Origin: Patescibacteria group bacterium
GTDB taxonomy: Bacteria; Patescibacteriota; Doudnabacteria; UBA920; VMFF01
Direction of reading: 5' to 3'
Assembly (NCBI GenBank): GCA_038065615.1
Contig: JBBTQQ010000005.1
Coordinates: forward strand, 7,984-71,983
DNA: 64,000 nt
The position numbers and the translations under genes are program-made. How positions within the stretch are numbered: position 1 is the first letter of the stretch; every line of letters starts with the position of its first letter. The notes under the pieces were generated by a model. It was given only the letters and a program-made list of their open reading frames with translations, was not told where the DNA came from and ran no database searches. Shown one piece after another: positions 7,984-40,952 of the stretch.

Positions 7984-8319
7984 ATGAAAACACTCAAGTT
8001 TAAGAACCATTTAGTGAAAGAAATTCTAGAAGGTAGGAAAACCGTTACCTGGAGATTATTTGATGACAAAGATTTGAGAACGGGAGACATGTTGGCGCTA
8101 ATTGATTCGTCAACGGGAGAAAAGTTTGCCGAGGCACAAATTGCAAAGGTTAGGGAAAAGACACTTGGGTATATAGAAGAACCTGATTTCGCAGATCATA
8201 AAAAACACCAAACCCTTGAAGACATGCTTAAACACTTCAAGGGATACTATGGAGACAAAGTCGCAAAGGATACGCTAGTTAAGATTATTGACTTTAGGGT
8301 TACGCGTATCCTGAAATAA
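7984..8319 (+). CDS. ASCH (PUA-like) domain protein
   Basis: 111 aa; EILEGRKTVTWRL motif characteristic of ASCH domains. Confidence 0.55.
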   Translation: MKTLKFKNHLVKEILEGRKTVTWRLFDDKDLRTGDMLALIDSSTGEKFAEAQIAKVREKTLGYIEEPDFADHKKHQTLEDMLKHFKGYYGDKVAKDTLVKIIDFRVTRILK

Positions 8320-8333
8320 GTCTAAAAAAATTT

Positions 8334-8588
8334 ATGCGCATAGAATTTAAGGAACGACCACAAAACGTTTGGATGGCTCGATGGTTTGGTGGAATCGTAT
8401 ACCTGTTGATGAAGCTGTTCGCAAAAAACAGAGACAGATATTTTAAGAGGTTAGGGATAAATAAGGAGCGAGTAATAGCTGGAGGGATTGTTCATGGTTC
8501 GTATGTGGCTGTTGTTGGCGAACAAGAAACCGGGGTTTACTTATTAAATACAGACGCCCTTATTACCAATATCCCAAATATATTTTGA
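8334..8588 (+). CDS. hypothetical protein
   Basis: 84 aa ORF, no recognisable motif. Confidence 0.3.
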   Translation: MRIEFKERPQNVWMARWFGGIVYLLMKLFAKNRDRYFKRLGINKERVIAGGIVHGSYVAVVGEQETGVYLLNTDALITNIPNIF

Positions 8589-8635
8589 GCAAGTATGGTA
8601 TAATTAGAGAAACAAAATAGAGTAGAGAAACAAAA

Positions 8636-9175
8636 ATGCCACAAGATTATAATTCGCTTTTAAACAGTGTTAACTTCCAAAACCCAAGCTGGGATGCTTT
8701 CATCTTCTTTTTTTGGGCCATAGTCGCTGTAATATACAGCTTTTCAGCTGGTAGAGGCAGAATAATTAGCATATTAGTTGCTGTTTACATGTCTGAACTG
8801 TTGGTAATCCAGGCCCCTTTCTTAAGTACAGCAGTAGGGGATCAGTTTGGTTTAGCTTTGTATTTAGGTCGTTTAACCACTTTTCTAGTTTTGTTTGCCT
8901 TTTTCTTCCTTGTTCTTTCAAAGTTTGTTTTTAGGACCTCTGTGGAAAATCGTCGTTGGGGTTCATGGGTATTTTCCCTTATCTTCGCTGTCTTACAGGT
9001 CGGTTTTTTAATCAGTGTTATTCTTTCATTCTTACCCCCTGAAGTTAAAACGACGTTCGCACCACTTGTAAAGTTTGTTTTCATTTCAGAAACAGCAAAT
9101 TTTGTTTGGTTGCTTCTGCCGATCGCTTTCTTAGTGTTCGTGGGTAGGCACATCTCAGACCACAGACTAGAGTAA
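8636..9175 (+). CDS. CvpA-like small membrane protein
   Basis: 179 aa, 4 predicted TM helices, GRGRI after first TM as in CvpA family. Confidence 0.4.
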   Translation: MPQDYNSLLNSVNFQNPSWDAFIFFFWAIVAVIYSFSAGRGRIISILVAVYMSELLVIQAPFLSTAVGDQFGLALYLGRLTTFLVLFAFFFLVLSKFVFRTSVENRRWGSWVFSLIFAVLQVGFLISVILSFLPPEVKTTFAPLVKFVFISETANFVWLLLPIAFLVFVGRHISDHRLE

Positions 9176-9191
9176 AGAAAAAAGCCAAATT

Positions 9192-9217
9192 AAAAATCCC
9201 GGTTTGCGGGATTTTTC
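9192..9217. terminator. bidirectional rho-independent terminator
   Basis: AAAAATCCCGGTTTGCGGGATTTTT hairpin with A- and T-tracts on either side. Confidence 0.6.
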
Positions 9218-9219
9218 TA

Positions 9220-9295
9220 TGGTGGGTCGGGTGGGGATCGAACCCACGACAAACGGCTTAAAAGGCCGCTGCTCTACCAACTGAGCTACCGACCC
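9220..9295 (-). tRNA. tRNA-Lys (anticodon TTT)
   Basis: Reverse complement GGGTCGGTAGCTCAGTTGGTAGAGC..CTTTTAA..GGTTCGATCCCCACCCGACCCACCA folds as canonical cloverleaf with encoded CCA. Confidence 0.85.
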
Positions 9296-9371
9296 GCAAG
9301 CTTTGCGAGTCAAAATTGATTTAACTTCCGTATTTTACAATATATATCAGAAAAATTCAAGGTACTTAAAG

Positions 9372-20891: not shown

Positions 20892-21821
20892 ATGTCGGTA
20901 TCAGACGTTGCGGGCCGGGACAATGTCCCGTCGAGTGCAACCCCGAACATCCGTCACGATGACGGACAGGGCTTGGAATTTCACGACGCGTTGGTTCGTG
21001 CTGGCTTGACCAGGCATGACCGACAGCATGTGATCAGTTCCAAGGGGAACCTTGTTGCCCAGTCTATCGTCATGGGCATCAGGGTTGTCGCCCAGCAGGA
21101 ACGCGATCTGAAGTGGCGGGACCCGAGGGCCTGGTCTGTATCCTCGGATTGTGGATATCCGGAGAGCTTGTCTTTCCGGAGCCACGAGACCCAGGTTCGG
21201 GTTTACAAGCAGCTGTTCGGAAATCTCGATGGTTCGCACGTCGACCAGATCATTCGGAATACAGCGTTCCCAGAAGAAGCAGATCTCTGGGCTGTGATTC
21301 CCAAGCCTTGGGTCATTGCTGAGGATGTTTTCTCGGCAATGCGCCTGATGGTCGAGAAGCTCTCCGAGCTCGGGATCGTGGTTGAGAACAAGGCTGCGTA
21401 CGAGATGGACGAGGCGCACATGCACCTCATCACCAAGATGCAGATGTTCTACGCCAAGCAACACAACCACCCCGGCGACTTCATCGTACTTCCTGTCCAG
21501 TTCGGCAAGAACTGGGCCGGGCACTCGCTGGTTTCGTCCAAGGCGCAGCACAGCATCGAGGAGTTCTCGTTGGATCCGTATGCCATCTTGGCGTTGCTCT
21601 ACACGCATCCAGAACGACTGCGGGGCGAACATCAGGAACTCGGCATCCGCTGTGGCGGGGTCCTGCTGGATCGACACCACGATGACCACGACGAAGTGAC
21701 CGGTGATCACCATCTCTGCTTCCGCTGGTTCCGCGATGGGTTGCTGATCTCAGCAGACCACGGCATGTGGGACCGCGAAGCGGCCTTGGGCATCCCGACT
21801 GGCTTCGACATCGACATCTAA
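20892..21821 (+). CDS. hypothetical His-rich protein encoded in a high-GC island
   Basis: 309 aa ORF with AGGAGG RBS 8 nt upstream of the ATG; GC markedly higher than flanks; long antisense ORF 20901-21713 considered an artefact of GC richness. Confidence 0.55.
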   Translation: MSVSDVAGRDNVPSSATPNIRHDDGQGLEFHDALVRAGLTRHDRQHVISSKGNLVAQSIVMGIRVVAQQERDLKWRDPRAWSVSSDCGYPESLSFRSHETQVRVYKQLFGNLDGSHVDQIIRNTAFPEEADLWAVIPKPWVIAEDVFSAMRLMVEKLSELGIVVENKAAYEMDEAHMHLITKMQMFYAKQHNHPGDFIVLPVQFGKNWAGHSLVSSKAQHSIEEFSLDPYAILALLYTHPERLRGEHQELGIRCGGVLLDRHHDDHDEVTGDHHLCFRWFRDGLLISADHGMWDREAALGIPTGFDIDI

Positions 21822-25968: not shown

Positions 25969-27273
25969 ATGAATATAAAGAAAAAAACAACAGTTTCTCA
26001 ATCAAGCAAACCACAATCACTTCCTGGCTTAGCCGATATTATTCCAGGACAGGATAATTACTGGGATTTTGTAAGCTCTCATCTTCAAAGAATTGCTCGT
26101 GGTTATGGTTTCAACAGAATTGAAATGCCACTCCTTGAAAATATTAGTTTGTACGCTCAAACAGAATTCGCAGAAAACAATGAAGCGGTTGATTTTGTAG
26201 ACAACAGCGCAACCAAAATTGCTGTTAGAGCAGCAAGCATGCCATCTCTGATGCGTGCTTTTCATGAATACAAAATTCCGGAAGGACACAAGGTTTCAAA
26301 ATGGTACTACCTGTCTCCGGTTTTAAGCTATGACCAGAAACAAAAGCAATACATTTCTTCTTGGCAATATGGTTTTGAAATGTTTGGCGAGTTTTCTCCT
26401 TTAAACGAGGTTCAGATGATTAGCTTGCTTTGGAAGTTCTTCAAAGCAATAGGTTTACAAAATGTTTCTTTGGAGATAGACAGCTTGGGTGACGAAGCTT
26501 GCAAAGGACAATACGAGGAAGCATTAACCGGATACTTACAAAGCAAGAAATATGAACTCTGCAATGATTGTGTGGCTGCAATTGAAGAGTTCCCAATGCA
26601 GGTTTTCAGATGCAACAACCTAGAGTGCAAAACCGTTGCAACAGACGCTCCACAATCAGTGGATTTCTTAGACACTGCTTGCCACAAACATCTTACAAAT
26701 GTTTTAGAAGGATTAGATGAGTTGGGAATAATGTACGCGTTAAATCCAATGCTTGCTGGAAAAAAAGGAACATCTAAAACAACCTTTGCTTTCAAACACA
26801 CAGAAACAACTCCAACAGGAACAGTAGACAGATTTCTAGGAGAGGGAGCATACCATGATCAGATATATAAAGAACTGACCGGCAAAAATGTTGTTTGTTT
26901 TGGTTTTCATTCAAACATTGAAAGTTTACAAAAAGCAGTTAAAGAACAAAAACAAGAACAGATCGAAACATTAGCTGTAGCAAAAGCAGAGGTTTTCTTA
27001 GCACCACTTGGTGATCTTGCTTCTAAGAAAGCCATAAAGCTATTCTCAGAACTTTGGGATGCACAGGTTTCAGTTCATGATCATTTCGGAGGAGAGGGTG
27101 TCAAAAATCAACTTAAACTAGCAGAGGGATCAAAAGCCATGATTGCTTTAATCATTGGACAAAAAGAAGCTATGGATGACATGGTTATTCTAAGAGATGT
27201 TAAATCAGGAATGCAGGAAGTTTTTAGATATGACCAAATAATTGAAGAGGTTAAAAAAAGATTGGGGAAATAG
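25969..27273 (+). CDS. histidyl-tRNA synthetase-like paralog with degenerate catalytic motifs (HisZ-like/pseudo-HisRS) retaining an anticodon-binding domain
   Basis: Class II aaRS core aligns to HisRS (GFNRIEMPLLE, motif-2 region reads WYYLSPVLSYDQKQKQYISSW instead of FRYERPQKGRYREF); C-terminal anticodon-binding-like domain present. Confidence 0.55.
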   Translation: MNIKKKTTVSQSSKPQSLPGLADIIPGQDNYWDFVSSHLQRIARGYGFNRIEMPLLENISLYAQTEFAENNEAVDFVDNSATKIAVRAASMPSLMRAFHEYKIPEGHKVSKWYYLSPVLSYDQKQKQYISSWQYGFEMFGEFSPLNEVQMISLLWKFFKAIGLQNVSLEIDSLGDEACKGQYEEALTGYLQSKKYELCNDCVAAIEEFPMQVFRCNNLECKTVATDAPQSVDFLDTACHKHLTNVLEGLDELGIMYALNPMLAGKKGTSKTTFAFKHTETTPTGTVDRFLGEGAYHDQIYKELTGKNVVCFGFHSNIESLQKAVKEQKQEQIETLAVAKAEVFLAPLGDLASKKAIKLFSELWDAQVSVHDHFGGEGVKNQLKLAEGSKAMIALIIGQKEAMDDMVILRDVKSGMQEVFRYDQIIEEVKKRLGK

Positions 27274-28435: not shown

Positions 28436-29680
28436 ATGCCACAACAACAATATCTTGTAGGTTTGGATATAGGGTCATCATACGTTAGAGTAGTTGTCGG
28501 AAAGATTGATGAAGAATCCAAAGTTCCAAGCATCATCGGAGTAAGCGAAACACCATCTTCTGGAATCAGAAAGGGAGTTATCATTGACATTGATGAAGCT
28601 GTTTCAACAATTTCTCAAGCACTTGAAAAAGTTGAACGCATGACAGGTATTGCTGTTACCGAGGCAACAGTAGCAATTGGTGGAGCACATATCTCATCAG
28701 TTGAATCACATGGAGTCATTGCAGTTTCCAGAGCTGATGGTGAGATCATGGAAAATGACATCATAAGAGTGATAGACGCTTCACAAGCGATTTCAATTCC
28801 AGCGAACAGGGAAATAATACACGTCATACCTAAAAATTTTGTTGTTGACGGACAAACAGGAATAAAAGATCCGCTCGGTATGACAGGTATTCGTTTAGAA
28901 GTTGATACAGTCATAGTTCAGGCAGCAGCACCATTCATAAAAAACTTAACTAAAGCAATACAGCAAGCTGGTATAAAGATAAACGACATGGTTTTAGCAC
29001 CTCTTGCCGCAGCTCAAGCAGTACTAACAAAGCGCCAAAAAGAACTTGGCGTTGCTTTAGTAGATTTGGGCGGTGGCACGACAGGTTTAGTTGTTTTTGA
29101 AGAAGGACAACTCTTGCACACATCAGTTGTTCCTGTTGGTTCAGCACATATTACAAACGACATTGCGATTGGCCTCAGAACTTCAATCGAAACAGCAGAG
29201 AAAGTTAAACAAAGATATGCTCATGCAATACCAAGAGAAGTAAACAGAAGCGAAGAAATAGATCTTTCTGAGATTGATTCATCTGAAGAAGAGCGTGTTT
29301 CAAGACACCATGTTGCTGAAATATCAGAAGCTCGCCTTGAAGAAATCTTTGATCTAGTAAACAAAGAATTAAAGACCATAAATAGAGACGGACAACTGCC
29401 GGCCGGGGTTGTTTTCACAGGGGCTGGCGCAAATCTTCCGGGCATACTAGAATTAGCTAAAAAGCAGCTTCGATTACCAGTACAACTTGGAGTTCCCGCA
29501 AACGTAAATACAATCATTGACCGGGTGGAGGACCCTGCATACGCAACAGCAGTGGGTCTAGTTCTTTGGGCTTTTGAATACCATCATGGTAGTGCTAAAG
29601 CACCAAAGTTTGGATTTGATATATTACAGAATGCAAAATTGGATCCTCTAAAAAAGCTGTTTAAGAAGTTTTTGCCATAA
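28436..29680 (+). CDS. ftsA: cell division protein FtsA
   Basis: Actin-fold motifs VGLDIGSS and DLGGGTT; upstream of ftsZ. Confidence 0.9.
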
Positions 29681-30957
29681 TGAAAAAGAATTTAAACAAG
29701 AAAAAGATGCAAGTTAAACCTAAAATTGAGACCTACGCCAGAATCAAAGTGTTAGGTGTTGGTGGTTCAGGCACAAATGCAATTCACCGAATGATGGAAC
29801 TTGGTATTAATGGTGTTGAGTTCATTGCTATAAACACAGACGCGCAGGCATTACACAATTCCAAAGCTGATAAAAAAGTTCACATCGGAAGAACAATCAC
29901 AAGAGGTCTTGGTGCTGGAATGAATCCAGACCAAGGAAGACAAGCAGCGGAAGAATCACACGATGATATATTTGAAGCTATTGAAAATGCTGACATGGTT
30001 TTCATTACTTGTGGTTTAGGTGGAGGAACAGGAACAGGTGCAGCACCAATCATTGCAGAGCTAGCCAAAGAACACGGCGTCTTAACAGTTGCTGTTGTTA
30101 CAAAACCTTTTGCATTTGAAGGAACAAAAAGAAGAGACGTTGCAGAAGAAGGCTACTCAAATCTAAAAGACAAAGTTGACGCAATAATCTCAATTTCAAA
30201 CGATCGAATCTTACAGATCATCGACAAAAAAACATCCTTAATAGATGCTTTCAAAACAGTTGATGATGTACTAAGACAAGGTATACAAGGAATCTCCGAT
30301 TTAATTACAACACACGGTATTGTTAACGCTGACTTTGCGGATGTTAGAACAATAATGCAAGATGCTGGTACTGCTTTAATGGGTATTGGCAGAGCATCTG
30401 GTGAAGGCAGAGCAATCGAAGCCGCAAGAAACGCAATTAATTCGCCATTATTAGAATTAGCAATCGATGGTGCTAAAGGAGTCTTGTTTAATATCACAGG
30501 TGGAACCAACCTTGGAATGTTTGAAATTGATGAAGCAGCTAAGATCATTACAAAGAGCGTTGATCCTGAAGCAAAAATCAAATTCGGCGCAGTTATTAAC
30601 GAAGACATGACTGATGAAGTTCAGATTACAGTCATTGCAACAGGTTTTGATGAGATGCAAAGAAAACCAAGCACAATTCGTTTGTCAGAAATTGATGAAC
30701 AGCTCGGTGGTGGTATGAGAGAATTTAGAAAAATGGATGATATTAAAAGAGAAGACATCTTTAAAAAAGTAGAAAAGCACGAAGAACCAAAAATTGAACC
30801 AAAAAAAGTAGAAGAACCAAGAGTGGTTCAAGAAAAACAAGTTCTTCCAGAAGCGAGAGAAGTTAGGAAACCATTTTTTTCAGGAACAGCGCCAGTCGTT
30901 GATGAAGAAACAGATGAGTTAGACATTCCTGCGTTCATCAGAAAAAAAATGAAGTAA
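29680..30957 (+). CDS. ftsZ: cell division GTPase FtsZ
   Basis: GVGGSGTNA tubulin signature, T7 loop, disordered C-terminal tail with conserved DIPAFIRKK peptide. Confidence 0.95.
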
Positions 30958-31728: not shown

Positions 31729-32445
31729 TTGGACAAACTGATGTTGCTTAACCGTATGGTGTTGGCTCTTGACGATATGGAACCGGATCAGATCGGTGAG
31801 CTGATCGCTGCACTTGCTCACAATGATCTTCTTCCATGGTCGTTCAAGGTCAACGATCGTTGGGTCGAGAGTGGAAAGCAGACGGTACCGATGTTGCGTC
31901 TTGCGGCCGGCGGTGCTCACGTCAGGGTGCTCGCAGACCTGAAGCTCAGCGACACCCCCAAGACCATGAGCGCAAGCGCGAGGCGGGTGCGCGAGGCGGG
32001 TGCAGTTGCACTCACAATCCATGCCAGCTGCGGCCTTGATTCCATCAAGGCTGCGCTTGAGCACGGTCCAGCGGAGATCATTGCTGTGACCTTGCTCACC
32101 TCGATCAATCGGATGAACTGCCTGGCGCTCTACGGGCGTGAGCCGATTGAGCAGGTCAAGATCTTTGCCAAATACGCGCTCGAGAGCGGGGTTGGCAATC
32201 TGGTCTGCTCCGGGGAAGAAGTCGCGACGCTTCACGAGATGTACCCTGGCATCGGTCTGCTGGTTCCCGGTGTTCGTATGCCGGGTAGCGACCTTCGGGG
32301 TCAGAAGCGCATCACTACGCCATGGGATGCTTTCAACAACGGTGCAACGCGCATCGTTGTCGGAAGCGAAGTCACGATGGCGAAGGACCCAGTGGCTACG
32401 TTCGAGAATCTGCTCGCGGAAACTGAGAAGCACGTGGAGTTCTGA
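31729..32445 (+). CDS. pyrF: orotidine 5'-phosphate decarboxylase (type 1), high-GC
   Basis: VLALDD N-terminal motif, catalytic DLKLSDTPKT (DxKxxD) and C-terminal RIVVGSEVTMAKDP phosphate-binding motif. Confidence 0.75.
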   Translation: MDKLMLLNRMVLALDDMEPDQIGELIAALAHNDLLPWSFKVNDRWVESGKQTVPMLRLAAGGAHVRVLADLKLSDTPKTMSASARRVREAGAVALTIHASCGLDSIKAALEHGPAEIIAVTLLTSINRMNCLALYGREPIEQVKIFAKYALESGVGNLVCSGEEVATLHEMYPGIGLLVPGVRMPGSDLRGQKRITTPWDAFNNGATRIVVGSEVTMAKDPVATFENLLAETEKHVEF

Positions 32446-32465
32446 CACCAACCGGAGGAGGAAGG

Positions 32466-33161
32466 ATGATAGTAACTGGGGGAAGGTGGCAGAACGAAGC
32501 TGTGACAAGCTTCCTAGACTCCCTCTGGGCCTTTGGCGCCATCATGGGCGTCGACAAGTCGCCAGAGGGCAAGGGGTTTCGGCTTGCGCTTCACGAGCGT
32601 AACCCAGATGCCCCACTCTCGCCGTTCTACTTCAACCTGCGGCGGGTCCAGTCGCACCCGGCGACCCTGTACATGGCAGCACAGATGATGAGGGAGAAGA
32701 TCATCGAGGATATTGATGGTGGTGCTTTCCAACTCATCGCCGGCATTCCAACTGCCGGTACACCGTTTTCGACAGCCTTGTCCCTGCTGATGCATCGCGG
32801 ACAGGTGTCGCCGCGGATGCAGGCGAAGGGGCACGGGGTTGGTGATCTCGTGGATGGTGACTTCCATGACGGGCAGACCGTTCTGTTGGTCGACGATCTG
32901 ATCACCGAGGCTGATTCCAAGCTTCGTGCGATCGACATCCTGCAGCGCGCCGGTCTCATCGTTCAGAATATCGCCGTCCTGATCGACCGGGAACAGGGCG
33001 GCAGACAGCGGCTTGAGGCTGCTGGGTACAAGGTTCACCCCGTCTTCACGGTCACTGAAGTCTTCTCCTACTACCTGGCTGCTGGTGAATCCACCCAGTC
33101 CGCCTACGACCAGATCGTGGAGTACCTCGACCGCGAAGCCGAGAAGCACGCGAACCAGTAA
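32466..33161 (+). CDS. pyrE: orotate phosphoribosyltransferase, high-GC
   Basis: SPFYFN and VLLVDDLITEADSKLRAIDILQRAGLIVQNIAVLIDREQGG align closely with E. coli PyrE PRPP-binding region; GGAGGAGG RBS. Confidence 0.8.
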   Translation: MIVTGGRWQNEAVTSFLDSLWAFGAIMGVDKSPEGKGFRLALHERNPDAPLSPFYFNLRRVQSHPATLYMAAQMMREKIIEDIDGGAFQLIAGIPTAGTPFSTALSLLMHRGQVSPRMQAKGHGVGDLVDGDFHDGQTVLLVDDLITEADSKLRAIDILQRAGLIVQNIAVLIDREQGGRQRLEAAGYKVHPVFTVTEVFSYYLAAGESTQSAYDQIVEYLDREAEKHANQ

Positions 33162-33262: not shown

Positions 33263-33325
33263 AGTGATTGTGGATAAACTTGATTTAGTTGTTTAAAAAG
33301 GTTGAAATTATTGGATTTTTGATAT

Positions 33326-33382
33326 ATTTGCCTACCACAACATATGGTGCTAAGATGTTTTTAGGAACACAAGATATAGTGT
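33326..33382 (+). promoter_or_regulatory. pair of NrdR boxes
   Basis: CACAACATATGGTG (33326-33339) and ACACAAGATATAGTGT (33367-33382) match the NrdR box consensus acaCwAtATaTwGtgt; centres about 42 bp apart; upstream of nrdR-nrdJ. Confidence 0.55.
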
Positions 33383-33501: not shown

Positions 33502-33945
33502 ATGCGCTGCCTAAACTGCAATCACGAAGACACAAAAGTTATTGACTCCCGCGTTGCTGGAGATGGTGTTGCAATTCGCCGCAGAAGAGAATGTAATTCC
33601 TGTGGTTTTCGTTTTTCTACATACGAAGAAGTTGAAATTTTAGATCTAACAGTTGTAAAAAGAGATGGAGTTAAAGAACTCTACTCTAGAGACAAACTAG
33701 AGCGGGGAATTAGGAGGGCATTTGAAAAAAGACCAGTCTCAGAAGAAAACTTCAAGAAACTAATATCACAGATTGAGCAGGAGATACAAAAAGTTGCAGA
33801 TCCGGAAATAACGACAGAGCAAATTGGAGACATAGTCATGAAAAAGATTAAAAAGGTCGACAAGGTTGCTTACGTAAGATTCGCATCAGTATACAAACAG
33901 TTTGAAGACATTGAAGAATTCAAAGCAGAACTGCAAAAACTTTAA
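33502..33945 (+). CDS. nrdR: transcriptional repressor NrdR
   Basis: N-terminal CxxC...CxxC zinc ribbon (MRCLNCNH...CNSCGFRF) plus ATP-cone. Confidence 0.9.
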   Translation: MRCLNCNHEDTKVIDSRVAGDGVAIRRRRECNSCGFRFSTYEEVEILDLTVVKRDGVKELYSRDKLERGIRRAFEKRPVSEENFKKLISQIEQEIQKVADPEITTEQIGDIVMKKIKKVDKVAYVRFASVYKQFEDIEEFKAELQKL

Positions 33946-33974: not shown

Positions 33975-36900
33975 ATGAGTGAAAACTTACAAATCAGAAC
34001 CAAGAACGCACTATCCGAACTCGGAGAAAAAATCTTTCTAGATCGTTATGCAGTTAAAGATGCTAAAAAAGAAACATTGGCAGTAGGAGATACTGTTGTC
34101 ATCAATGTTAATTTAAAAACAGGACAGAGAGAAATTGGAACAGTTAAGGAAGTTGATAGGTTTAGCAAACAAGTAGAAGTAACCTTGCGCGATGGCACAG
34201 TAGAGAAACGCGCAATAGAGCATGTAGACAAACCTTTGGAAACAGTTCCTGAACAAATGTTTGAGCGCATAGCTCGTCATATTGCAAGCGTTGAGAAAAC
34301 TCCAGAAAAACAAAATGAATGGCAGGGGAAATTTAGAGAACTAATGGATGACTGGAAATATGTTCCAGCAGGAAGAATCTTTACTGGTGCAGGAACCGGT
34401 CAAAACCTAACTTTTTACAACTGCTATGTCATACCATGTCCTCAGGATTCTCGTGGTGGTATTTTTGACACACTCAGACAAATGGCAGAAATCATGTCCC
34501 GAGGGGGCGGTGTTGGTATAAACGTATCTACGTTGAGACCAAGATACGCATATGTTAAAGGTGTTAATGGAAGATCTTCTGGTTCTGTTTCTTGGGCTTC
34601 TTTGTATAGCTTTGTTACGGGTTTAATTGAACAGGGTGGTTGTTTTGGACCGAATGAAAGAATTGCAACCAATGTTGGTTTGGTTCCTGCAAAAGAATTG
34701 GCTGACCGTATTGAAGCAGGAGAAGCAATATACGCCCAAACCCATAAAGGTATGCGTCGAATAACAGCTAAATTCAGAAATGGCGTGAAAGAACTTTATG
34801 AAGTAACAACTGAGCGTGGATTTAGCACCGAGATAACAGCAGATCATAAGGTCGCAGTACTATTAAACGGCCGAGTTGAAACAACTGCTTTAAAAAATTT
34901 GAAGCAAGGAGACGACATCTTGTTGTTGCTTGGCAATGCTACTGGTCAAAATTATGTGTCGCTTAAGAAAAGTGATTACAAGCGTTCTGTAATGAGTACG
35001 ACCTTAAATACTGATGTTCGTCTTCCTGAAATGCTCAATGAAGATTTGGCATACCTTGTTGGATATATGTTGGGTGATGGATATGTGAGTTGGGGTAAAA
35101 AAGTAAATTGGTCTGCTCCTAAAGCTGTTAAAATGGCAACCGCCGATACATACCCTGAAATTCGTCAGAGAATTGTTGATGCGATCCAAAATCTTTTTGG
35201 TGTTGATGCAGTAATTGAAAAAGGCGACGGTGCTTGCCAAAACGTTTCTTTGTATTCTCGCATTGTAATTGAGTGGCTCTTAGAAAATGGTTTACTCAAA
35301 TCTAAAGCAAAAGATATTCGTGTGCCAGAAAGCATTTTTCGCTCACCGACCAGCGTGACTGGGTCATTCATAGCCGGGTATTTTGACGCTGACGGTTGCA
35401 ACCGTGGAGCAAAGGGTGGTTATGGTATTGACAGCATAAGTCGTGAAATGCTCACAGACGTGCAACAGCTTTTAGCTGCAAACGGTGTCTTGTCTGCTAT
35501 TCGTGCAACTGATCGAACAGAACAAGGTTGGCAAACAATCTATCGTTTAAGTGTTGCTGGAAATCAATTTAAAGAGCGTTTTGCAGATTTGGTTTCTACT
35601 GCCAAGCGTTCTGACTTCAATGGCAAGCGCGATATGTTTAATACTTACCCGTCAGAAATTTTAGCTGCTGTCGGTGTGCGTAGCAAGGACCGTCAGGGAA
35701 TCTATGATGGCACATCTCCGCAGGTTTCTTTTAATCAACTTGTACACATCCAAAAACGTTTGAATACTGTCGAACAATATTCTGCCGCCCAATATCTTGA
35801 TGACATCATGCACACCATTCCTGACACGATTACCGCAATCAAATCGGTTGGTAAAAGCGATGTTTATGACTTTGAGGTTGAAGATGTCCATTTGCTCAGT
35901 GGTGGTGGTGTTTACACTTCAAACAGCAGAAGAGGCGCTTTAATGCTCATTCTAAACGTTTGGCATCCTGATATTGTTGATTTCATCAATGCGAAGAGAG
36001 AAGCTGGAAAAATAACTAACGCGAATATTTCTGTTGGTATTACTGATGATTTCATGGAAGCTGTTAAAAATGATGCTGATTGGGATTTAGTTTTCCCAGA
36101 CACATCAGATCCTTTGTACCAAGCAGAGTGGGCTAATACACAAGGTGATATTAAAGCATGGCAAAAACTTGGTGGTAAAGTCGTTGTTCATAAAACAATG
36201 AAAGCAAAAGAAATCTGGGATCAAATCATTTCCTCAGCATGGTCTTCAGCAGAACCTGGTGTTTACTTCATTGATCGCGCAAACTATCTTTCAAATTCTT
36301 ACTACTACGCAGCATTGCCTTGTACCAATCCTTGTGGTGAACAACCACTTCCTGCTTGGGGTGTTTGTAACCTAGGACATGTTAATCTTGCAAAACATCT
36401 TTCAAACAATGAAGTTGATTGGCAGAAATTAAAAGAAACAGTAAAGTATGCAGTTCGTTTCCAGGACAATGTCATAGATGCAACACCATACTTTTTTGAT
36501 GAGAACTTCAAACAACAAATGTCTGAAAGAAGAGTTGGCATGGGAACAATCGGACTCGCAGAGATGTTAATTAAATTAAGAATTAGATATGGAAGTGATG
36601 AAGCAATTCAATTCATCGACAAGCTCTATCAATTCATTGCAGTTACATCTTACGAAACATCAGTAGAAATCGCTCGTGAAAAAGGATCTTTCCCTCAATT
36701 TGATGCTGAAAAATTCTTAGAAAGCGGATACATGAAAGCAATGCCTGAATATATTCGTTCATTAGTCAGACAGTATGGTGTCAGAAACGTAACAATAATG
36801 ACTCAGGCACCAACTGGAACAATCGGAACAATGGTTGGAACATCAACAGGAATTGAACCATTCTTCTCATGGACATACTTTAGAAAGAGCAGACTTGGTG

Positions 36901-37931
36901 TTCATGAAGAAAAGATTAAACTAGCTCAAGACTGGTTGGATCAAAATCCAGGACAAGAACTTCCAGAATACTTTGTTACTGCAATGAGCCTTGCTCCTGA
37001 AGACCACGTTAGAGTTCAGGCAGCAGTTCAACGTTGGACAGACTCAGCAATTTCAAAGACCTGTAATGCCCCTTCAAACTACACTGTAGAAGACACTAAA
37101 AAGCTATACCAGATGATGTATGACCTTGGTTGCAAAGGTGGAACCATTTACCGTGATGGTTCAAGAGATGAACAAATCTTAGCAACAGATGCAAAGAACC
37201 TTGGTAAAGATGTTCAGGAACAACTAGAGGCAAAAGCAAAGATTGAAACACAAGTAACTCAAATTGTTCAAGAAGGACAAGATCTCTTACAAATTGGTGA
37301 CCACAAGTTCTTGGTTAAAAAACTCATTCAAAACGGAACTAAATTTGAAGTTGTACCAAGGGAACGTCCAATTGAGATGCAAGGAACAACATACAAATTA
37401 AATACGCCGTATGGTTCGCTCTTTGTAACCATAAACGAAGATGAGCATGGACCATTTGAAGTCTTTGCACAGCTTGGTAAAGCTGGTGGTTTTTTCGCAG
37501 CTCAATCAGAAGCTCTATGCAGAATGATTTCCTTAAGTTTAAGATCAGGCGTTGCTGTAGAGGAAATAATCAAACAGTTGAAGGGAATTAGAAGTACTGA
37601 GGTTGCATTTAACCAAGGCGAGATAATTTATTCATTGCCTGATGGTATTGCAAAGACCATGGAAAAGCACATCAATCGCAAACAGCAAAGCTTACAACTC
37701 CAATTCAAACAAGCAGAACCAGCAAAACTCGATTTAAAAGAAGAAGTCAAAATGACAGTTTCAGAAGGACCGGTAGAAGTAAGTTCTGTTGCGGAGTTTC
37801 AGCCTAAACAACAAAAGGTTTCAATGGCAGACTATGGTCATGCGCCGGTTTGTCCAGATTGTTCTTCAATGCTTGTTATGGCAGAGGGATGTATGAAATG
37901 TGATGTCTGCGGATATTCTAAGTGCGGTTAA
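33975..37931 (+). CDS. nrdJ: class II (adenosylcobalamin-dependent) ribonucleotide reductase NrdJ, interrupted by an in-frame intein
   Basis: NPCGEQPLPAWGVCNLGHVNL active-site region, SRRGALM motif, C-terminal Cys-rich zinc ribbon; 1318 aa vs about 700-900 expected, difference explained by the intein. Confidence 0.9.
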   Translation: MSENLQIRTKNALSELGEKIFLDRYAVKDAKKETLAVGDTVVINVNLKTGQREIGTVKEVDRFSKQVEVTLRDGTVEKRAIEHVDKPLETVPEQMFERIARHIASVEKTPEKQNEWQGKFRELMDDWKYVPAGRIFTGAGTGQNLTFYNCYVIPCPQDSRGGIFDTLRQMAEIMSRGGGVGINVSTLRPRYAYVKGVNGRSSGSVSWASLYSFVTGLIEQGGCFGPNERIATNVGLVPAKELADRIEAGEAIYAQTHKGMRRITAKFRNGVKELYEVTTERGFSTEITADHKVAVLLNGRVETTALKNLKQGDDILLLLGNATGQNYVSLKKSDYKRSVMSTTLNTDVRLPEMLNEDLAYLVGYMLGDGYVSWGKKVNWSAPKAVKMATADTYPEIRQRIVDAIQNLFGVDAVIEKGDGACQNVSLYSRIVIEWLLENGLLKSKAKDIRVPESIFRSPTSVTGSFIAGYFDADGCNRGAKGGYGIDSISREMLTDVQQLLAANGVLSAIRATDRTEQGWQTIYRLSVAGNQFKERFADLVSTAKRSDFNGKRDMFNTYPSEILAAVGVRSKDRQGIYDGTSPQVSFNQLVHIQKRLNTVEQYSAAQYLDDIMHTIPDTITAIKSVGKSDVYDFEVEDVHLLSGGGVYTSNSRRGALMLILNVWHPDIVDFINAKREAGKITNANISVGITDDFMEAVKNDADWDLVFPDTSDPLYQAEWANTQGDIKAWQKLGGKVVVHKTMKAKEIWDQIISSAWSSAEPGVYFIDRANYLSNSYYYAALPCTNPCGEQPLPAWGVCNLGHVNLAKHLSNNEVDWQKLKETVKYAVRFQDNVIDATPYFFDENFKQQMSERRVGMGTIGLAEMLIKLRIRYGSDEAIQFIDKLYQFIAVTSYETSVEIAREKGSFPQFDAEKFLESGYMKAMPEYIRSLVRQYGVRNVTIMTQAPTGTIGTMVGTSTGIEPFFSWTYFRKSRLGVHEEKIKLAQDWLDQNPGQELPEYFVTAMSLAPEDHVRVQAAVQRWTDSAISKTCNAPSNYTVEDTKKLYQMMYDLGCKGGTIYRDGSRDEQILATDAKNLGKDVQEQLEAKAKIETQVTQIVQEGQDLLQIGDHKFLVKKLIQNGTKFEVVPRERPIEMQGTTYKLNTPYGSLFVTINEDEHGPFEVFAQLGKAGGFFAAQSEALCRMISLSLRSGVAVEEIIKQLKGIRSTEVAFNQGEIIYSLPDGIAKTMEKHINRKQQSLQLQFKQAEPAKLDLKEEVKMTVSEGPVEVSSVAEFQPKQQKVSMADYGHAPVCPDCSSMLVMAEGCMKCDVCGYSKCG
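34641..35924 (+). mobile_element. intein with LAGLIDADG homing-endonuclease domain inside nrdJ
   Basis: Starts with Cys (CFGPNERIATNVGLV), two LAGLIDADG motifs (LAYLVGYMLGDGYV, FIAGYFDADGC), ends ...VYTSN followed by Ser; spliced junction would read LIEQGG-SRRGALM. Confidence 0.75.
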
Positions 37932-37980
37932 TTAAAGAACTTAAAGAAATCGCCTTAGAGGCGATTTTCTTTTTACTAAA

Positions 37981-38232
37981 ATGATCCTAAAAGTAAAAGC
38001 TCATCCTAAATCTAAAAAAAGAATGCTCAAGAAAATTTCCAATACTGAAGTCGAAGTTTGGATTCATGAAGAACCAATAGAAGGGAAGGCTAACAAAGCA
38101 ATCATAGAGCTTTTGTCTGAAGAACTAGAAATCCCTAAGAGTTTGATTAGTATAAAGTCGGGGAGCGCTTCTAAACAAAAAAGCTTTGAGATACAAGGCA
38201 AGCCCAAAATGCCAAGAGACTTGTTTGGGTAA
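37981..38232 (+). CDS. DUF167/YggU-family protein
   Basis: 83 aa; EGKANKAIIELLSEEL pattern of UPF0235. Confidence 0.6.
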   Translation: MILKVKAHPKSKKRMLKKISNTEVEVWIHEEPIEGKANKAIIELLSEELEIPKSLISIKSGSASKQKSFEIQGKPKMPRDLFG

Positions 38233-38476: not shown

Positions 38477-39058
38477 ATGTCCAAAGGCCTAAACATTTAT
38501 TACTACGGAAAAGGAAAAGGAAAAACCACAGCAGTTATGGGTCTTGCTGTTCGTGCTGCTGGTGCTTTAATGAATGTTTCAATCTTGCAGTTTGTTAAAG
38601 CAAAACAACCAAAAAAAGGAAACCGTTTACAAAGCGGGGAATGGCCTGTCTCAAATGAGTTCTTGTATTTCAACGCAACAAAAACAAAAAAGGTAGGTAA
38701 AATTGAAAGCAAACAAGTTGGAGCTGGATTTGTTGGAATATTAGGCGACAAAAAACAAAGAGAGATTCATATTAAAGCCGCAAAGCAAGGATTAAAAGAA
38801 GCAGAGAAAATATTCAAGTCTAAAAAATATCAGCTCGTAATTCTAGATGAACTAATTTCTGCGCTTGAACTTAAACTAATAACTGAAAAAGAAGTCCTCA
38901 ACCTCATTTCTAAAAAACCTAAAGAATTACACCTTGCATACACTGGACACGAGGCTTTCAAAAAGATAATAGAGGTTTCAGATTTGGTTTCCGAAGTAAA
39001 AATGATTAAGCATCCATATTACAAGGGAATCATGGCAATTAGGGGCATAGATTTTTAA
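38477..39058 (+). CDS. cobA: cob(I)yrinic acid a,c-diamide / corrinoid adenosyltransferase (CobA/CobO/BtuR family)
   Basis: P-loop YGKGKGKTTA, VSILQFVK, LVILDELISALE, HLAYTGHEA motifs of PF02572-type ATP:cob(I)alamin adenosyltransferase. Confidence 0.75.
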   Translation: MSKGLNIYYYGKGKGKTTAVMGLAVRAAGALMNVSILQFVKAKQPKKGNRLQSGEWPVSNEFLYFNATKTKKVGKIESKQVGAGFVGILGDKKQREIHIKAAKQGLKEAEKIFKSKKYQLVILDELISALELKLITEKEVLNLISKKPKELHLAYTGHEAFKKIIEVSDLVSEVKMIKHPYYKGIMAIRGIDF

Positions 39059-39626: not shown

Positions 39627-40952
39627 ATGAAATTAATAGAACCACGAAATCTAAAGGGCTTCAGAGACTATCTGCCAACAGATCAGATTCCAAGAAGCAT
39701 CATGTTTTCAAAAATCAAAGCAGTCTTTGAGCGTTTTGGATTTGAGCCATTAGAAACGCCTGTTTTAGAGTATGAAGACATTCTAGCTGGTAAATACGGA
39801 GCAGAGGGCGAGAAATTAATGTATCGCTTCAAAGACAATGGCGAAAGAGATGTTGCTATGCGATATGACCTAACGGTTCCTCTTGCCAGAGTTTCAGCAC
39901 AATACCAAAATGATCTGCCAAAGCCTTTCAAGAGATATCAGATTGCTCCAGTGTGGAGAGCAGAGAATACACAAAAAGGAAGATATCGCGAGTTCTATCA
40001 ATGTGATGTTGATGTTGTTGGAGCACCTGCTGGTGTTGCAGATGCTGAATGTATTGCTATGGTAGAACAGATTTTCTTAGAGCTGGGTATAAAGAAATTT
40101 GTTGTTAAAGTAAACAACAGAAAAATATTGAATGCGATAATGCTGACAGCAGGGGTTTCAGAAGACAAGATACTAGATGCGATAAGAGCCATAGACAAGT
40201 TGGATAAGGTGGGGGCTAAAGCAGTTGTTTTAGAATTAAAAGAAAAAGTCGGTTTAAGCTTAAACGAAGCTGAAGGCTTAATTACCCTTGCCTCAACAAA
40301 AGTTCCTGATATAGGTGCCCTAAAAGCATTCATAAACAAATACATCCTTAAACAACCTCAAGGACAAGAAGGCTTTGATGAATTAAACAGTGTTTTCACA
40401 GCCTTAAAAGTTTTTGGAATAAGAAACGTTGAGATTGATCTTTCTTTAGCTCGTGGTCTTGATTACTATACTTCAACAATCTTTGAAACAATCATTACTG
40501 AAACAATAGACTCAAGAAAATATGGTTCAGTTGCTGGGGGAGGTAGATACGACAAATTAATCAAACTTTTCACGGGAAAAGATGTTCCTGCTGTTGGTAT
40601 TTCAATTGGTATTGATCGTTTGTTTGCAGCAATGGAAGACCTTGGTTTAGTTAAAAAACAAGGCATTGTTTCAGTATTGGTCTTAAACATGGAAGAATCT
40701 CTTCAAAAAGAATACTTAAAGATTGTTTCAGACTTGAGAAAAGCTGGTATTAATTCAGAGTTTTACTATGTTCCTTCAGAAATGAAAAAGCAGTTTGCTT
40801 TTGCAGAAGCAAAAAACATCCCATATGGAATACTTTTTGGTTTAGAAGAAGCAAAAAAAGGAACAGTTACCTTAAGAGACTTAAAAACAAGAAAACAAAA
40901 GACCGTTAAACAAAAAGACCTTCCAAAGGAATTAAAAAAACTTTTAAAATAG
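39627..40952 (+). CDS. hisS: histidyl-tRNA synthetase
   Basis: Motif 1/2 intact (QIAPVWRAENTQKGRYREFYQCDVD), class II anticodon-binding domain. Confidence 0.95.
   Translation: MKLIEPRNLKGFRDYLPTDQIPRSIMFSKIKAVFERFGFEPLETPVLEYEDILAGKYGAEGEKLMYRFKDNGERDVAMRYDLTVPLARVSAQYQNDLPKPFKRYQIAPVWRAENTQKGRYREFYQCDVDVVGAPAGVADAECIAMVEQIFLELGIKKFVVKVNNRKILNAIMLTAGVSEDKILDAIRAIDKLDKVGAKAVVLELKEKVGLSLNEAEGLITLASTKVPDIGALKAFINKYILKQPQGQEGFDELNSVFTALKVFGIRNVEIDLSLARGLDYYTSTIFETIITETIDSRKYGSVAGGGRYDKLIKLFTGKDVPAVGISIGIDRLFAAMEDLGLVKKQGIVSVLVLNMEESLQKEYLKIVSDLRKAGINSEFYYVPSEMKKQFAFAEAKNIPYGILFGLEEAKKGTVTLRDLKTRKQKTVKQKDLPKELKKLLK

What the first reader, a model, noticed from the sequence alone, without database searches (positions are those of the whole stretch)
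33975..37931. nrdJ carries a 428-aa LAGLIDADG intein; B12 adenosyltransferase gene nearby
The class II RNR gene is roughly 430 codons longer than usual. The extra block starts with Cys, has two LAGLIDADG motifs and ends in Asn before Ser, splitting the conserved ...EQGG | SRRGALM... region - a classic intein with homing endonuclease. About 550 bp downstream, cobA/btuR-type corrinoid adenosyltransferase (38477-39058) would supply the AdoCbl cofactor NrdJ needs. That implies this organism salvages cobalamin rather than making it.
Basis: partly seen in the sequence, partly recalled or inferred. Interest (0 to 1): 0.55.

Follow-up and report, generated by a model that had tools for sequence, protein, structure and literature searches.

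The report
Homing-endonuclease intein in a groundwater bacterium's NrdJ
The B12-dependent ribonucleotide reductase gene of this ultra-small groundwater bacterium is interrupted by a 428-residue self-splicing intein with a homing endonuclease, an ordinary kind of selfish element whose closest relatives sit at the same spot in a different phylum (Chloroflexota) and in a phage-like contig.

Summary
ORF 33975-37931 (1318 aa) is a class II ribonucleotide reductase (NrdJ). It carries an in-frame 428-aa insertion (nt 34641-35924; Cys223...Ser-Asn650 | Ser651).

- An intein-free allele 94% identical in the extein reads straight through ...LIEQGG|SRRGALM...
- All splicing residues and both LAGLIDADG aspartates are present. 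They are invariant in 31 full-length relatives.
- The predicted fold matches solved intein-endonucleases (TliVMA, PI-PkoII, PI-PfuI, PI-SceI).
- The penultimate Ser is invariant in the family, so it is not decay.
- The insertion sits inside RNR "loop 2", one residue before the essential Arg. An active enzyme therefore requires splicing.

The host gene is native to Patescibacteria/CPR, where 119 of the 120 best extein matches lack the intein. The intein's relatives (at most 69% identity) occupy the same site in Anaerolineae, Ktedonobacteria and one phage-like contig. This points to horizontal acquisition.

The corrinoid adenosyltransferase gene (38477-39058) is real. The nrdR-nrdJ-...-btuR order recurs in related CPR genomes, so a functional link is well supported. 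"Salvages rather than makes B12" is plausible but cannot be shown from this window.

Verdict: a new member of a well-known kind, of low to moderate interest.

The parts
33335..33382 (+). Two NrdR-box-like palindromes upstream of nrdR: ccacaacatatggtgc (33335-33350) and acacaagatatagtgt (33367-33382). Their centres are 32 bp apart and they overlap a promoter-like site.
   Evidence: Read from the sequence; promoter-like TTGATA-18-TATGGT at 33319-33348. The match to the NrdR-box consensus and its about 31-32 bp spacing rests on my own knowledge (Rodionov and Gelfand 2005) and has no statistical test behind it.
33502..33945 (+). nrdR, the transcriptional repressor of ribonucleotide reductase genes; it ends 29 bp before nrdJ
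   Evidence: Pfam Zn_ribbon_NrdR + ATP-cone; NCBIfam TIGR00244 at 188 bits, above the 124.65 cut-off
33975..37931 (+). nrdJ precursor ORF, 1318 codons plus stop (N-extein + intein + C-extein)
   Evidence: NCBIfam TIGR02504 NrdJ_Z at 583 bits, cut-off 400
33975..34640 (+). N-extein, 222 aa, ending ...YSFVTGLIEQGG (the effector-proximal half of RNR loop 2)
   Evidence: loop 2 assignment from PMC4728125 and PMC3267527
34641..35924 (+). Intein, 428 aa (Cys1 ... Ser427-Asn428)
   Evidence: blastn against the intein-free relative L003 breaks at window 34641 and 35928, within 3 nt of the C-terminal junction (35924).
34641..34940 (+). N-terminal splicing (Hint) half, intein residues 1 to about 100. 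Block A is CFGPNERI; block B is T66-A-D-H69.
   Evidence: TIGR01445 intein_Nterm at 29.4 bits, cut-off 24.5; beta-strands 7-96 in the model; retained in the mini-intein relatives P0021, P0022 and P0024
34941..35816 (+). Nested homing-endonuclease region, intein residues about 101-392: linker, two-motif LAGLIDADG core (about 133-320) and a helical region (about 321-392)
   Evidence: Pfam LAGLIDADG_3; Foldseek matches to TliVMA, PI-PkoII, PI-PfuI, PI-SceI and I-DmoI; this is the segment missing from the mini-intein relatives
35055..35081 (+). LAGLIDADG motif 1, LVGYMLGDG (Asp146)
   Evidence: Asp146 and Gly147 invariant in 31/31 relatives
35370..35396 (+). LAGLIDADG motif 2, IAGYFDADG (Asp251)
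   Evidence: Asp251 invariant in 31/31
35817..35924 (+). C-terminal splicing half, intein residues 393-428. Block F is VYDFEVEDVHLL (D410, H417); block G is VYTSN (S427, N428).
35925..37931 (+). C-extein, 668 aa plus stop. It starts Ser-Arg-Arg-Gly-Ala (the substrate-proximal half of loop 2, with the conserved Arg) and contains the NPCGE active-site motif.
   Evidence: colinear alignment with T. maritima NrdJ 1xje
37404..37670 (+). TSCPD domain of the C-extein
   Evidence: Pfam PF12637, residues 1144-1232
37851..37928 (+). C-terminal Cys-rich tail, CPDCSSMLVMAEGCMKCDVCGYSKCG (zinc-ribbon-like)
   Evidence: Read from the translation and conserved in CPR and Anaerolineae homologues. A role in re-reduction of the active site is from my own knowledge of class II RNR tails and was not tested.
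37946..37968 (+). Terminator-like hairpin followed by a T-run, after nrdJ
   Evidence: a consensus scan only
37981..38232 (+). DUF167/YggU-family ORF between nrdJ and btuR
   Evidence: Pfam PF02594; the same position in relative L033
38477..39058 (+). btuR/cobA-type ATP:corrinoid adenosyltransferase, with P-loop GKGKGKTT
   Evidence: PF02572 at E 9e-48; PDB 1g5r/4hut at E 1e-16; NCBIfam TIGR00708 at 136.7 bits, below the equivalog cut-off of 167.75; synteny with nrdJ in L023, L033, L034 and L035

Best explanation
The insertion is a canonical (class 1) intein carrying a nested two-motif LAGLIDADG homing endonuclease. It sits in the nrdJ gene of a Patescibacteria/CPR bacterium from Hainich groundwater.

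The gene is translated as a 1318-aa precursor. Cys223 is expected to start an N-S acyl shift. Ser651 (+1) attacks the thioester, Asn650 cyclises to release the intein, and an O-N shift leaves the 890-aa enzyme with a normal ...EQGG-SRRGA... loop 2.

The intein lies between the Gln side and the Arg side of the allosteric specificity loop. The unspliced precursor therefore cannot be a working reductase, which keeps splicing under selection.

The released intein is expected to cut intein-free nrdJ alleles at the GLIEQGG|SRRGALM-coding site and to be copied in by repair (homing).

The element most likely entered this CPR lineage horizontally. The source pool is the set of alleles resident at the same site in Chloroflexota (Anaerolineae, Ktedonobacteria) and carried by at least one phage-like genome.

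The nearby btuR/cobA-type gene belongs to a conserved nrdR-nrdJ-...-btuR cluster and most likely makes the adenosylcobalamin that NrdJ needs.

Shown: anatomy, boundaries, residue conservation, predicted fold, distribution, synteny. Inferred: actual splicing, endonuclease activity, direction and vector of transfer, and the source of the corrinoid.
For: Precise in-frame insertion:
- The in-silico spliced protein aligns colinearly with T. maritima NrdJ 1xje (E 7e-83) through the junction.
- Relative P0030 (94% extein identity, 895 aa) has an uninterrupted LIEQGGSRRGALM.
- Its DNA aligns to the window with the break at 34641/35928.

Intein identity:
- TIGR01445 intein_Nterm scores above its cut-off and Pfam finds LAGLIDADG_3.
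- Sequence search of the PDB hits the VMA inteins 7qss/7qsu (E 2e-13), PI-PkoII and PI-PfuI.
- The AlphaFold model (pLDDT 79, pTM 0.82) matches TliVMA intein 7qss (E 2e-24, TM 0.70), then PI-PkoII, PhoVMA, PI-PfuI, PI-SceI and I-DmoI.

Conservation:
- C1, H69, D146, D251, D410, H417, S427 and N428 are invariant, and T66 is kept in 30/31, across 31 full-length alleles.
- All 27 genomic copies are open, with no stop codons, at the same site with Ser+1.

Host gene under constraint: dN/dS is 0.07 for the exteins between the window and the 98%-identical MAG L006.

Loop 2 position: E. coli loop 2 is residues 292-301 with Gln294 and Arg298 (PMC4728125). T. maritima K202 and Q203 lie in loop 2 (PMC3267527). 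Alignment with 1xje places the intein after the QGG.

Horizontal origin:
- 119 of the 120 best extein matches, mostly unnamed and where named mainly Patescibacteria/Doudnabacteria, lack the intein.
- Intein relatives sit in Anaerolineae, Aggregatilineales, Phototrophicaceae and Ktedonobacteria NrdJ.
- The intein is 58-69% identical to Anaerolineae copies, while the exteins are only about 50-67% identical.
- In NJ bootstraps the Anaerolineae inteins exclude the window's in only 2% of replicates.
- The +1 Ser codon is AGC here but TCT in the empty CPR sites. That accounts for 3 of the 5 differences in 42 bp. AGY occurs in many Chloroflexota alleles, which is consistent with co-conversion.
- A contig with tail sheath, tail tube and baseplate genes carries an allele at the same site.

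Homing cycle: HE-less mini-inteins occupy the same site in P0021, P0022 and P0024.

btuR; synteny.
Against: - Nothing here demonstrates splicing or DNA cleavage.
- The penultimate His, a common assisting residue, is replaced by Ser. Inteins without it are known to splice (Chen, Benner and Perler 2000, cited in PMC4031507), but efficiency cannot be predicted.
- Pfam Intein_splicing scores just below its gathering threshold (33.7 vs 35.8).
- The endonuclease part shows only 1 synonymous and 2 non-synonymous differences between the two closest copies. That is too few to show current purifying selection.
- The nearest known relative is only 69% identical, and intein GC3 (0.32) is within the host range. 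The transfer is therefore not recent, or the donor is unsampled.
- The closest intein-free relative is itself distant at silent sites (dS about 0.93). Loss in that lineage is not excluded.
- The NJ topology around the window's intein has only moderate support (63%).
- btuR scores below NCBIfam's equivalog cut-off.
Confidence: 0.88

Rival explanations
1. The intein was inherited vertically from a common ancestor of CPR and Chloroflexota NrdJ and has since been lost precisely from almost all CPR lineages. It was not acquired horizontally.
For: CPR and Anaerolineae NrdJ belong to the same subfamily, with the N-terminal insert, TSCPD domain and Cys-rich tail. They share ftsZ upstream of nrdJ. The intein is compositionally like its host (GC3 0.32 vs 0.28) and only 69% identical to any relative. 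The nearest intein-free relative is dS about 0.93 away, so loss there is conceivable. A second CPR-like genome (L023) also carries an allele.
Against: 119 of the 120 best extein matches lack it, which would require very many independent precise losses. The intein is more similar to Anaerolineae copies than the far more constrained exteins are. The window's intein nests inside Anaerolineae diversity: Anaerolineae monophyly excluding it appears in 2% of bootstraps, and the three CPR copies group together in only 4%. The +1 Ser codon switch is consistent with co-conversion.
Confidence: 0.15
2. The intein still splices, but its endonuclease is dead. The element is fixed in this lineage and persists only because deleting it imprecisely would destroy an essential gene.
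For: Only one shallow clade (window + L006, 98% nt identity) carries it, and no polymorphic empty site was seen at that depth. Between these two copies the HE region has 2 non-synonymous and 1 synonymous change. HE-less mini-inteins at this site show that the family does go through endonuclease loss.
Against: Both catalytic Asp residues and the surrounding motifs are intact and invariant in 31 alleles. The LAGLIDADG core is about as conserved as the splicing halves (0.76 vs 0.80-0.81 mean column agreement). The ORF is intact and the region folds confidently.
Confidence: 0.25
3. The 428-aa block is a non-splicing insertion domain, or a decayed intein that leaves nrdJ a pseudogene, and another reductase supplies dNTPs.
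For: The penultimate His is absent, Pfam Intein_splicing is sub-threshold, and the rest of the genome is unseen.
Against: Every nucleophile and assisting residue other than the penultimate His is present and invariant. Ser427 is itself invariant in 31 intact alleles across two phyla, which points to function rather than decay. The exteins are under strong purifying selection (dN/dS 0.07). The insertion breaks loop 2 one residue before the Arg whose Ala mutant is essentially inactive in E. coli (PMC4728125), so a permanent insert is incompatible with the observed constraint. The Hint fold is predicted with high confidence.
Confidence: 0.03

Closest known systems
Intein-encoded LAGLIDADG homing endonucleases with solved structures: TliVMA/PhoVMA inteins (7qss, 7qst), PI-PkoII (2cw7), PI-PfuI (1dq3, itself from a ribonucleotide reductase), PI-SceI (1vde)
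   Same: The architecture is the same: a Hint splicing domain split by a two-motif LAGLIDADG endonuclease plus an extra DNA-binding-type region. Size is about 430-540 aa. Foldseek gives E 2e-24 to 2e-11 and TM up to 0.70; sequence search gives E 2e-13 to the VMA inteins.
   Different: Sequence identity is only 11-21%. Most of these sit in a different host protein and all at a different insertion site. The penultimate residue is Ser instead of His.
Allelic NrdJ inteins of Chloroflexota: Anaerolineae, Aggregatilineales and Phototrophicaceae MAGs (L007-L032), and Ktedonobacteria such as Dictyobacter kobayashii (P0002)
   Same: The insertion site is identical (GLIEQGG|C...[TS]SN|SRRGALM). Length is the same (about 427-431 aa), as are all catalytic residues including Ser427. 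Identity is 51-69% over the full length.
   Different: The host phylum differs. Those genes often hold two to four inteins (extra sites near extein residues 150, 359 and 535), whereas this gene has one. They lack nrdR and btuR next to nrdJ.
Ribonucleotide reductase inteins in general (RNR is the second most frequent intein host in bacteria, with 211 inteins in 16 phyla; Novikova et al. 2016, PMC4760082)
   Same: An intein placed in a highly conserved functional site of an essential dNTP-synthesis enzyme, with sporadic distribution and evidence of horizontal spread.
   Different: Patescibacteria/CPR are not among the phyla listed there. I could not establish whether this loop 2 site already has an InBase name.
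Inteins that splice without a penultimate His (for example those studied by Chen, Benner and Perler 2000; Ssp DnaE intein, Sun et al. 2005; both cited in PMC4031507)
   Same: The C-terminal Asn is preceded by a non-His residue in an otherwise canonical class 1 intein.
   Different: Here the residue is Ser and is fixed across a whole allelic family. No biochemical data exist for it.

Membership tests
Class 1 (canonical) intein | In-frame insertion whose removal restores a colinear, conserved host protein; intein-free alleles exist | tested here: met
   Alignment to 1xje; intein-free P0030 at 94% extein identity; the blastn break falls within 3 nt of the intein ends
Class 1 (canonical) intein | N-terminal nucleophile Cys/Ser (block A position 1) | tested here: met
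   Cys223 (intein C1), 31/31 in the family
Class 1 (canonical) intein | Block B Thr-x-x-His | tested here: met
   T66-A-D-H69; T in 30/31, H in 31/31
Class 1 (canonical) intein | Block F with conserved Asp and His | tested here: met
   VYDFEVEDVHLL; D410 and H417 in 31/31. Assignment to the block F positions is by pattern, from my own knowledge plus PMC4031507.
Class 1 (canonical) intein | Block G: penultimate His | tested here: not met
   Ser427, invariant in 31/31. This residue assists but is not obligatory; inteins lacking it are known to splice (references in PMC4031507).
Class 1 (canonical) intein | C-terminal Asn and a +1 Cys/Ser/Thr | tested here: met
   Asn650 (intein N428) and Ser651. 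Asn428 is invariant in 31 full-length alleles. Ser +1 was seen in the window and in all 27 genomic loci.
Class 1 (canonical) intein | Hint (Hedgehog/intein) fold | tested here: met
   The AlphaFold model has beta-rich N (7-96) and C (392-427) parts. Foldseek hits whole inteins and also mini-intein splicing domains (Mtu RecA, Npu DnaB). This is a prediction only.
Class 1 (canonical) intein | Autocatalytic protein splicing | not testable with these tools
   Needs expression and protein analysis
LAGLIDADG homing endonuclease (two-motif, monomeric) | Two LAGLIDADG motifs, each ending in a catalytic acidic residue | tested here: met
   LVGYMLGDG (D146) and IAGYFDADG (D251), both Asp in 31/31; Pfam LAGLIDADG_3
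LAGLIDADG homing endonuclease (two-motif, monomeric) | Pseudo-dimeric alpha-beta-beta-alpha-beta-beta-alpha core | tested here: met
   Model helices and strands at 134-314; matches to I-DmoI with target-normalised TM 0.58-0.74. This is a prediction only.
LAGLIDADG homing endonuclease (two-motif, monomeric) | Site-specific cleavage of the intein-free allele | not testable with these tools
   The candidate target is the empty site of L003/L033
Class II (adenosylcobalamin-dependent) ribonucleotide reductase NrdJ | Match to the curated equivalog model, and active-site Cys/Asn/Cys/Glu/Cys aligned with the T. maritima enzyme | tested here: met
   TIGR02504 at 583 bits against a 400-bit cut-off. FYNC, NPCGE and CNLG align with 1xje C134, N320/C322/E324 and C333. 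Residue numbers come from counting the alignment, plus Table 4 of PMC4728125 for N320 and E324.
CobA/BtuR/CobO ATP:corrinoid adenosyltransferase | Family profile match and P-loop | tested here: met
   PF02572 at 163 bits against a 25.7-bit cut-off; GKGKGKTT aligned with the Salmonella CobA P-loop
CobA/BtuR/CobO ATP:corrinoid adenosyltransferase | Score above NCBIfam's equivalog cut-off (same function as the characterised enzyme) | tested here: not met
   TIGR00708 at 136.7 bits against a 167.75-bit cut-off. It is a divergent member, and its activity is inferred.

The most novel reading that the evidence does not exclude
The intein may be a trace of DNA traffic between this groundwater CPR lineage and Anaerolineae-type Chloroflexota, either directly (an epibiont living on a Chloroflexota host) or through phages that carry the same nrdJ subfamily with the same intein. 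Allelic inteins could then be used as markers to pair uncultured CPR bacteria with their hosts. A second, weaker reading is that splicing at loop 2, with an unusual fixed Ser-Asn C-terminus, is slow or conditional and acts as a post-translational gate on dNTP supply.
Probability: 0.1. Interest if true: 0.55.

Novelty: new member of a known kind. Interest (0 to 1): 0.27.

Why it matters
Inteins in ribonucleotide reductases are textbook cases, so the element itself adds little. Three points have some value.

1. It documents a full-length, apparently functional intein-endonuclease in a protein gene of a CPR/Patescibacteria genome. In the papers I searched, the homing endonucleases described for that group are those in rRNA introns.

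2. Its nearest relatives lie in another phylum and in a phage-like contig, at a target whose 14 residues are identical everywhere. This makes it a clean example of cross-phylum homing made possible by an invariant functional site (RNR loop 2).

3. It defines an allelic family with a fixed Ser-Asn C-terminus, which could be of practical interest for intein engineering.

For annotation, the gene should be described as intein-containing nrdJ, not as an oversized or fused reductase. The conserved nrdR-nrdJ-btuR cluster is a useful marker of B12 dependence in these reduced genomes.

Tried and rejected
- **Cobalamin riboswitch or other RNA element near nrdJ/btuR:** an Rfam gathering scan of the whole window found only six tRNAs.
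- **Cobalamin synthesis or uptake genes in the window:** Pfam annotations of all called genes across the window show no Cob/Cbi, FecCD/BtuC or Peripla_BP_2/BtuF families. The ABC transporters present are of the MacB and ABC_membrane types.
- **Profile-based locus search with alignment A1:** this failed because no sufficiently conserved stretch was available, owing to fragmentary rows. The single-protein query worked.
- **dN/dS on the endonuclease between the two closest copies:** there are too few substitutions (1 synonymous, 2 non-synonymous) to say anything.
- **The +1 Ser codon as a diagnostic of the donor:** both AGY and TCN occur among Chloroflexota alleles, so it is consistent with co-conversion but not proof.
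- **The GC-rich pyrF/pyrE island just upstream as a sign of gene flow from Chloroflexota:** rejected. Its nearest relatives are Doudnabacteria-type CPR (77%), followed by a drop below 50% with no clear donor. The intein-free relative L003 also has the island.
- **Search for a closer donor in JGI metagenomes and IMG/VR:** nothing above 68-69% identity turned up.
- **InBase name of the insertion site:** I could not find one in the papers available.
- **First phylogeny script:** it timed out and I replaced it with a faster NJ and bootstrap.

Full report
**1. What is in the sequence**

The + strand ORF 33975-37931 encodes 1318 residues. Pfam finds the ribonucleotide reductase all-alpha domain, a barrel domain split in two, a TSCPD domain, LAGLIDADG_3, and Intein_splicing at 33.7 bits against a 35.8-bit cut-off.

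The extra block is residues 223-650 (nt 34641-35924), exactly 428 aa. It begins CFGPNERI, ends VYTSN and is followed by SRRGALM. NCBIfam places the whole protein in TIGR02504 (NrdJ_Z) well above the cut-off. It places the first 72 residues of the insert in TIGR01445 (intein N-terminal splicing region), also above the cut-off.

The window is part of a 96.6-kb contig from a 0.2-µm-filtered Hainich groundwater metagenome, ERZ1292628 Hain_H41_02um. NCBI lists the identical protein as a Patescibacteria MAG protein.

**2. It is a precise insertion**

- With the block removed in silico, the 890-aa protein aligns colinearly with T. maritima NrdJ (1xje, E 7e-83) straight through the junction.
- 119 of the 120 best extein homologues are 842-960 aa and have no intein domains. 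Most are unnamed; where a source names the organism it is mainly Patescibacteria/Doudnabacteria.
- The closest, P0030 (94% identical), reads ...LIEQGGSRRGALM... uninterrupted.
- At the DNA level its contig (L003) aligns to the window in two blocks that end at 34641 and resume at 35928.
- The junction reads GAACAAGGTGGT|TCTAGAAGA in the empty allele and GAACAGGGTGGT|[intein]|AGCAGAAGA here.

**3. It has what an intein-endonuclease needs**

I compared 31 full-length alleles: the window, 27 genomic loci and three Ktedonobacteria proteins.

- Invariant residues are C1, H69, D410, H417, S427, N428 and both LAGLIDADG aspartates (D146, D251). T66 is kept in 30 of 31.
- All 27 genomic copies are open and share the same flanks and a +1 Ser.
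- Sequence search of the PDB finds VMA inteins, PI-PkoII and PI-PfuI.
- An AlphaFold model built on the family alignment (pLDDT 79, pTM 0.82) has a beta-rich splicing domain made of residues about 1-96 and 392-427. A LAGLIDADG core and a helical region lie in between.
- Foldseek ranks TliVMA intein first (E 2e-24, TM 0.70). PI-PkoII, PhoVMA, PI-PfuI, PI-SceI, I-DmoI and mini-intein splicing domains follow.
- Three relatives (P0021, P0022, P0024) are mini-inteins at the same site that lack residues about 100-395. This marks the endonuclease boundaries and shows the family passes through the usual cycle of endonuclease loss.

It is fixed in all 31 alleles, so it is a family trait. Inteins without the penultimate His are known to splice (references listed in PMC4031507).

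**4. Where it sits in the enzyme**

- E. coli loop 2 is residues 292-301 (C-S-Q-G-G-V-R-G-G-A). Gln294 selects pyrimidines, and Arg298 latches the substrate; R298A is essentially inactive (PMC4728125).
- In T. maritima, K202 and Q203 are loop 2 residues (PMC3267527).
- Counting along the alignment, the window's Q-G-G | S-R-R-G-A corresponds to Q294-G-G | V297-R298-G-G-A.
- The intein therefore splits the loop that carries allosteric specificity information to the active site, one residue before the essential Arg.

An unspliced precursor cannot plausibly be an active reductase. The exteins are under strong purifying selection (dN/dS 0.07 against the 98%-identical MAG L006). Splicing competence is therefore inferred, but it has not been shown.

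**5. Where it came from**

The extein belongs to CPR. The intein's relatives do not.

- They occupy the same site in NrdJ of Ktedonobacteria (about 52% identity) and of Anaerolineae, Aggregatilineales and Phototrophicaceae (58-69%).
- One further CPR-like genome carries an allele (L023, 62%; it has nrdR-nrdJ-btuR-hisS synteny).
- Identity of the intein to Anaerolineae copies exceeds that of the far more constrained exteins (about 66% for the N-extein, about 51% for the C-extein).
- In a neighbour-joining analysis the window's intein nests among Anaerolineae inteins. The group with L007, L008 and L019 has 63% support. Anaerolineae are monophyletic to its exclusion in 2% of 300 replicates, and the three CPR copies group together in 4%.
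- The 14-residue target GLIEQGG|SRRGALM is identical in all 32 alleles examined, filled or empty, and differs only at silent positions. This explains how one endonuclease family can home across phyla.
- The +1 Ser codon is AGC here but TCT in the two nearest empty CPR sites, which accounts for three of the five differences in 42 bp. AGY is common among Chloroflexota alleles, consistent with co-conversion of the flank.
- A 26.9-kb IMG/VR contig with tail-sheath, tail-tube and baseplate genes carries the same NrdJ subfamily with an allelic intein at this site, plus a second intein. Phages are therefore a plausible vehicle.

There are caveats.

- The best match is only 69% identical.
- The intein's GC3 (0.32) is host-like.
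- The nearest intein-free relative is dS about 0.93 away.

The event is therefore old or the donor is unsampled, and loss in sister lineages cannot be excluded. I put vertical inheritance with massive loss at about 0.15.

**6. The B12 part**

- ORF 38477-39058 is a CobA/BtuR-type adenosyltransferase: PF02572 at E 9e-48, and a P-loop aligned with Salmonella CobA 1g5r.
- It scores below NCBIfam's equivalog cut-off.
- It lies 546 bp after nrdJ, with a DUF167/YggU ORF and a terminator-like hairpin in between.
- The order nrdR-nrdJ-(DUF167)-btuR-...-hisS recurs in intein-free CPR relatives with 72-83% NrdJ identity. In one of them btuR follows nrdJ by 5 bp. The order also holds in L023. A functional link is well supported.
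- The window holds no cob/cbi genes, no BtuF/BtuCD-type transporter and no cobalamin riboswitch.

That is compatible with salvage, but it covers only a fraction of the genome.

**7. Regulation**

nrdR ends 29 bp before nrdJ. Upstream of nrdR lie two palindromes resembling NrdR boxes, with centres 32 bp apart, overlapping a promoter-like site. The comparison to the NrdR-box consensus rests on my own knowledge.

**8. Verdict**

Both the observation and the interpretation are correct. The element is a new member of a well-known kind: RNR is the second commonest bacterial intein host, with 211 inteins in 16 phyla (PMC4760082). Three features go modestly beyond routine:

- the CPR host,
- the cross-phylum and phage-linked allelic family,
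- the position in loop 2 together with a fixed Ser-Asn terminus.

Interest 0.27.

Noticed in passing
window 31729-33161: A GC-rich island (58-59% GC, GC3 0.68-0.72, against about 39% and 0.23-0.33 around it) encodes pyrF-like and pyrE-like genes immediately upstream of nrdR. The intein-free relative L003 has the same GC-rich pyrE-like gene, but at only 67-68% aa identity while its NrdJ is 94% identical. The nearest homologues are Doudnabacteria-type (77%), followed by a drop below 50%. Why these genes stay GC-rich in a low-GC genome is unexplained.
   Followed up: partly
window 20892-21821: A second GC-rich patch (58% GC) has overlapping ORFs on both strands (309 aa on +, 270 aa on -). Neither Pfam nor NCBIfam matches the 309-aa product.
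   Followed up: partly
window 55195-59241: A 1348-aa ORF with no Pfam hit on record and somewhat raised GC (0.446). It lies in a stretch that also holds AbiEii, NYN, AAA_14/DUF4143 and HTH genes, so it may be a mobile or defence-type island.
   Followed up: no
window 25969-27273 and 39627-40952: There are two histidyl-tRNA-synthetase-like genes (434 and 441 aa) about 12 kb apart. The second is part of the conserved nrdJ-btuR-hisS neighbourhood.
   Followed up: no
L008, L011, L015, L018, L022, L026 and other Anaerolineae loci: Anaerolineae nrdJ genes are intein hot spots. N-sides of about 620-650 aa and C-sides of about 1000-1450 aa imply up to four inteins per gene. The extra sites lie near extein residues 150 (FYN|C), 359 (NPC|) and 535. 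The CPR gene carries only the loop 2 one.
   Followed up: partly
L055 (IMGVR_UViG_3300032164_000059; the same contig as L054), 4302-9335: A phage-like contig (tail sheath, two gp19-type tail tube genes, T4-type baseplate, HNH) carries a 1677-aa nrdJ with two inteins. One of them is allelic to the window's (GLIEQGG|CFAPETRL...IYTSN|SRQGALM).
   Followed up: partly
P0002 (Dictyobacter kobayashii, 6-Mb contig): The annotated protein stops nine residues or fewer after the intein (…YTSNSRREH). This suggests a frameshift, a pseudogene or a sequencing error in that genome's nrdJ.
   Followed up: no
L009-L032 (Anaerolineae) and window 29680-30957: ftsZ lies a few kb upstream of nrdJ both in the CPR genomes and in many Anaerolineae loci. 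This gene-order resemblance between the two phyla may reflect shared ancestry of the region.
   Followed up: no
window 37981-38232: A DUF167/YggU-family ORF sits between nrdJ and btuR. It occupies the same position in relative L033 but not in L034 or L035. Its role, if any, in the cluster is unknown.
   Followed up: partly
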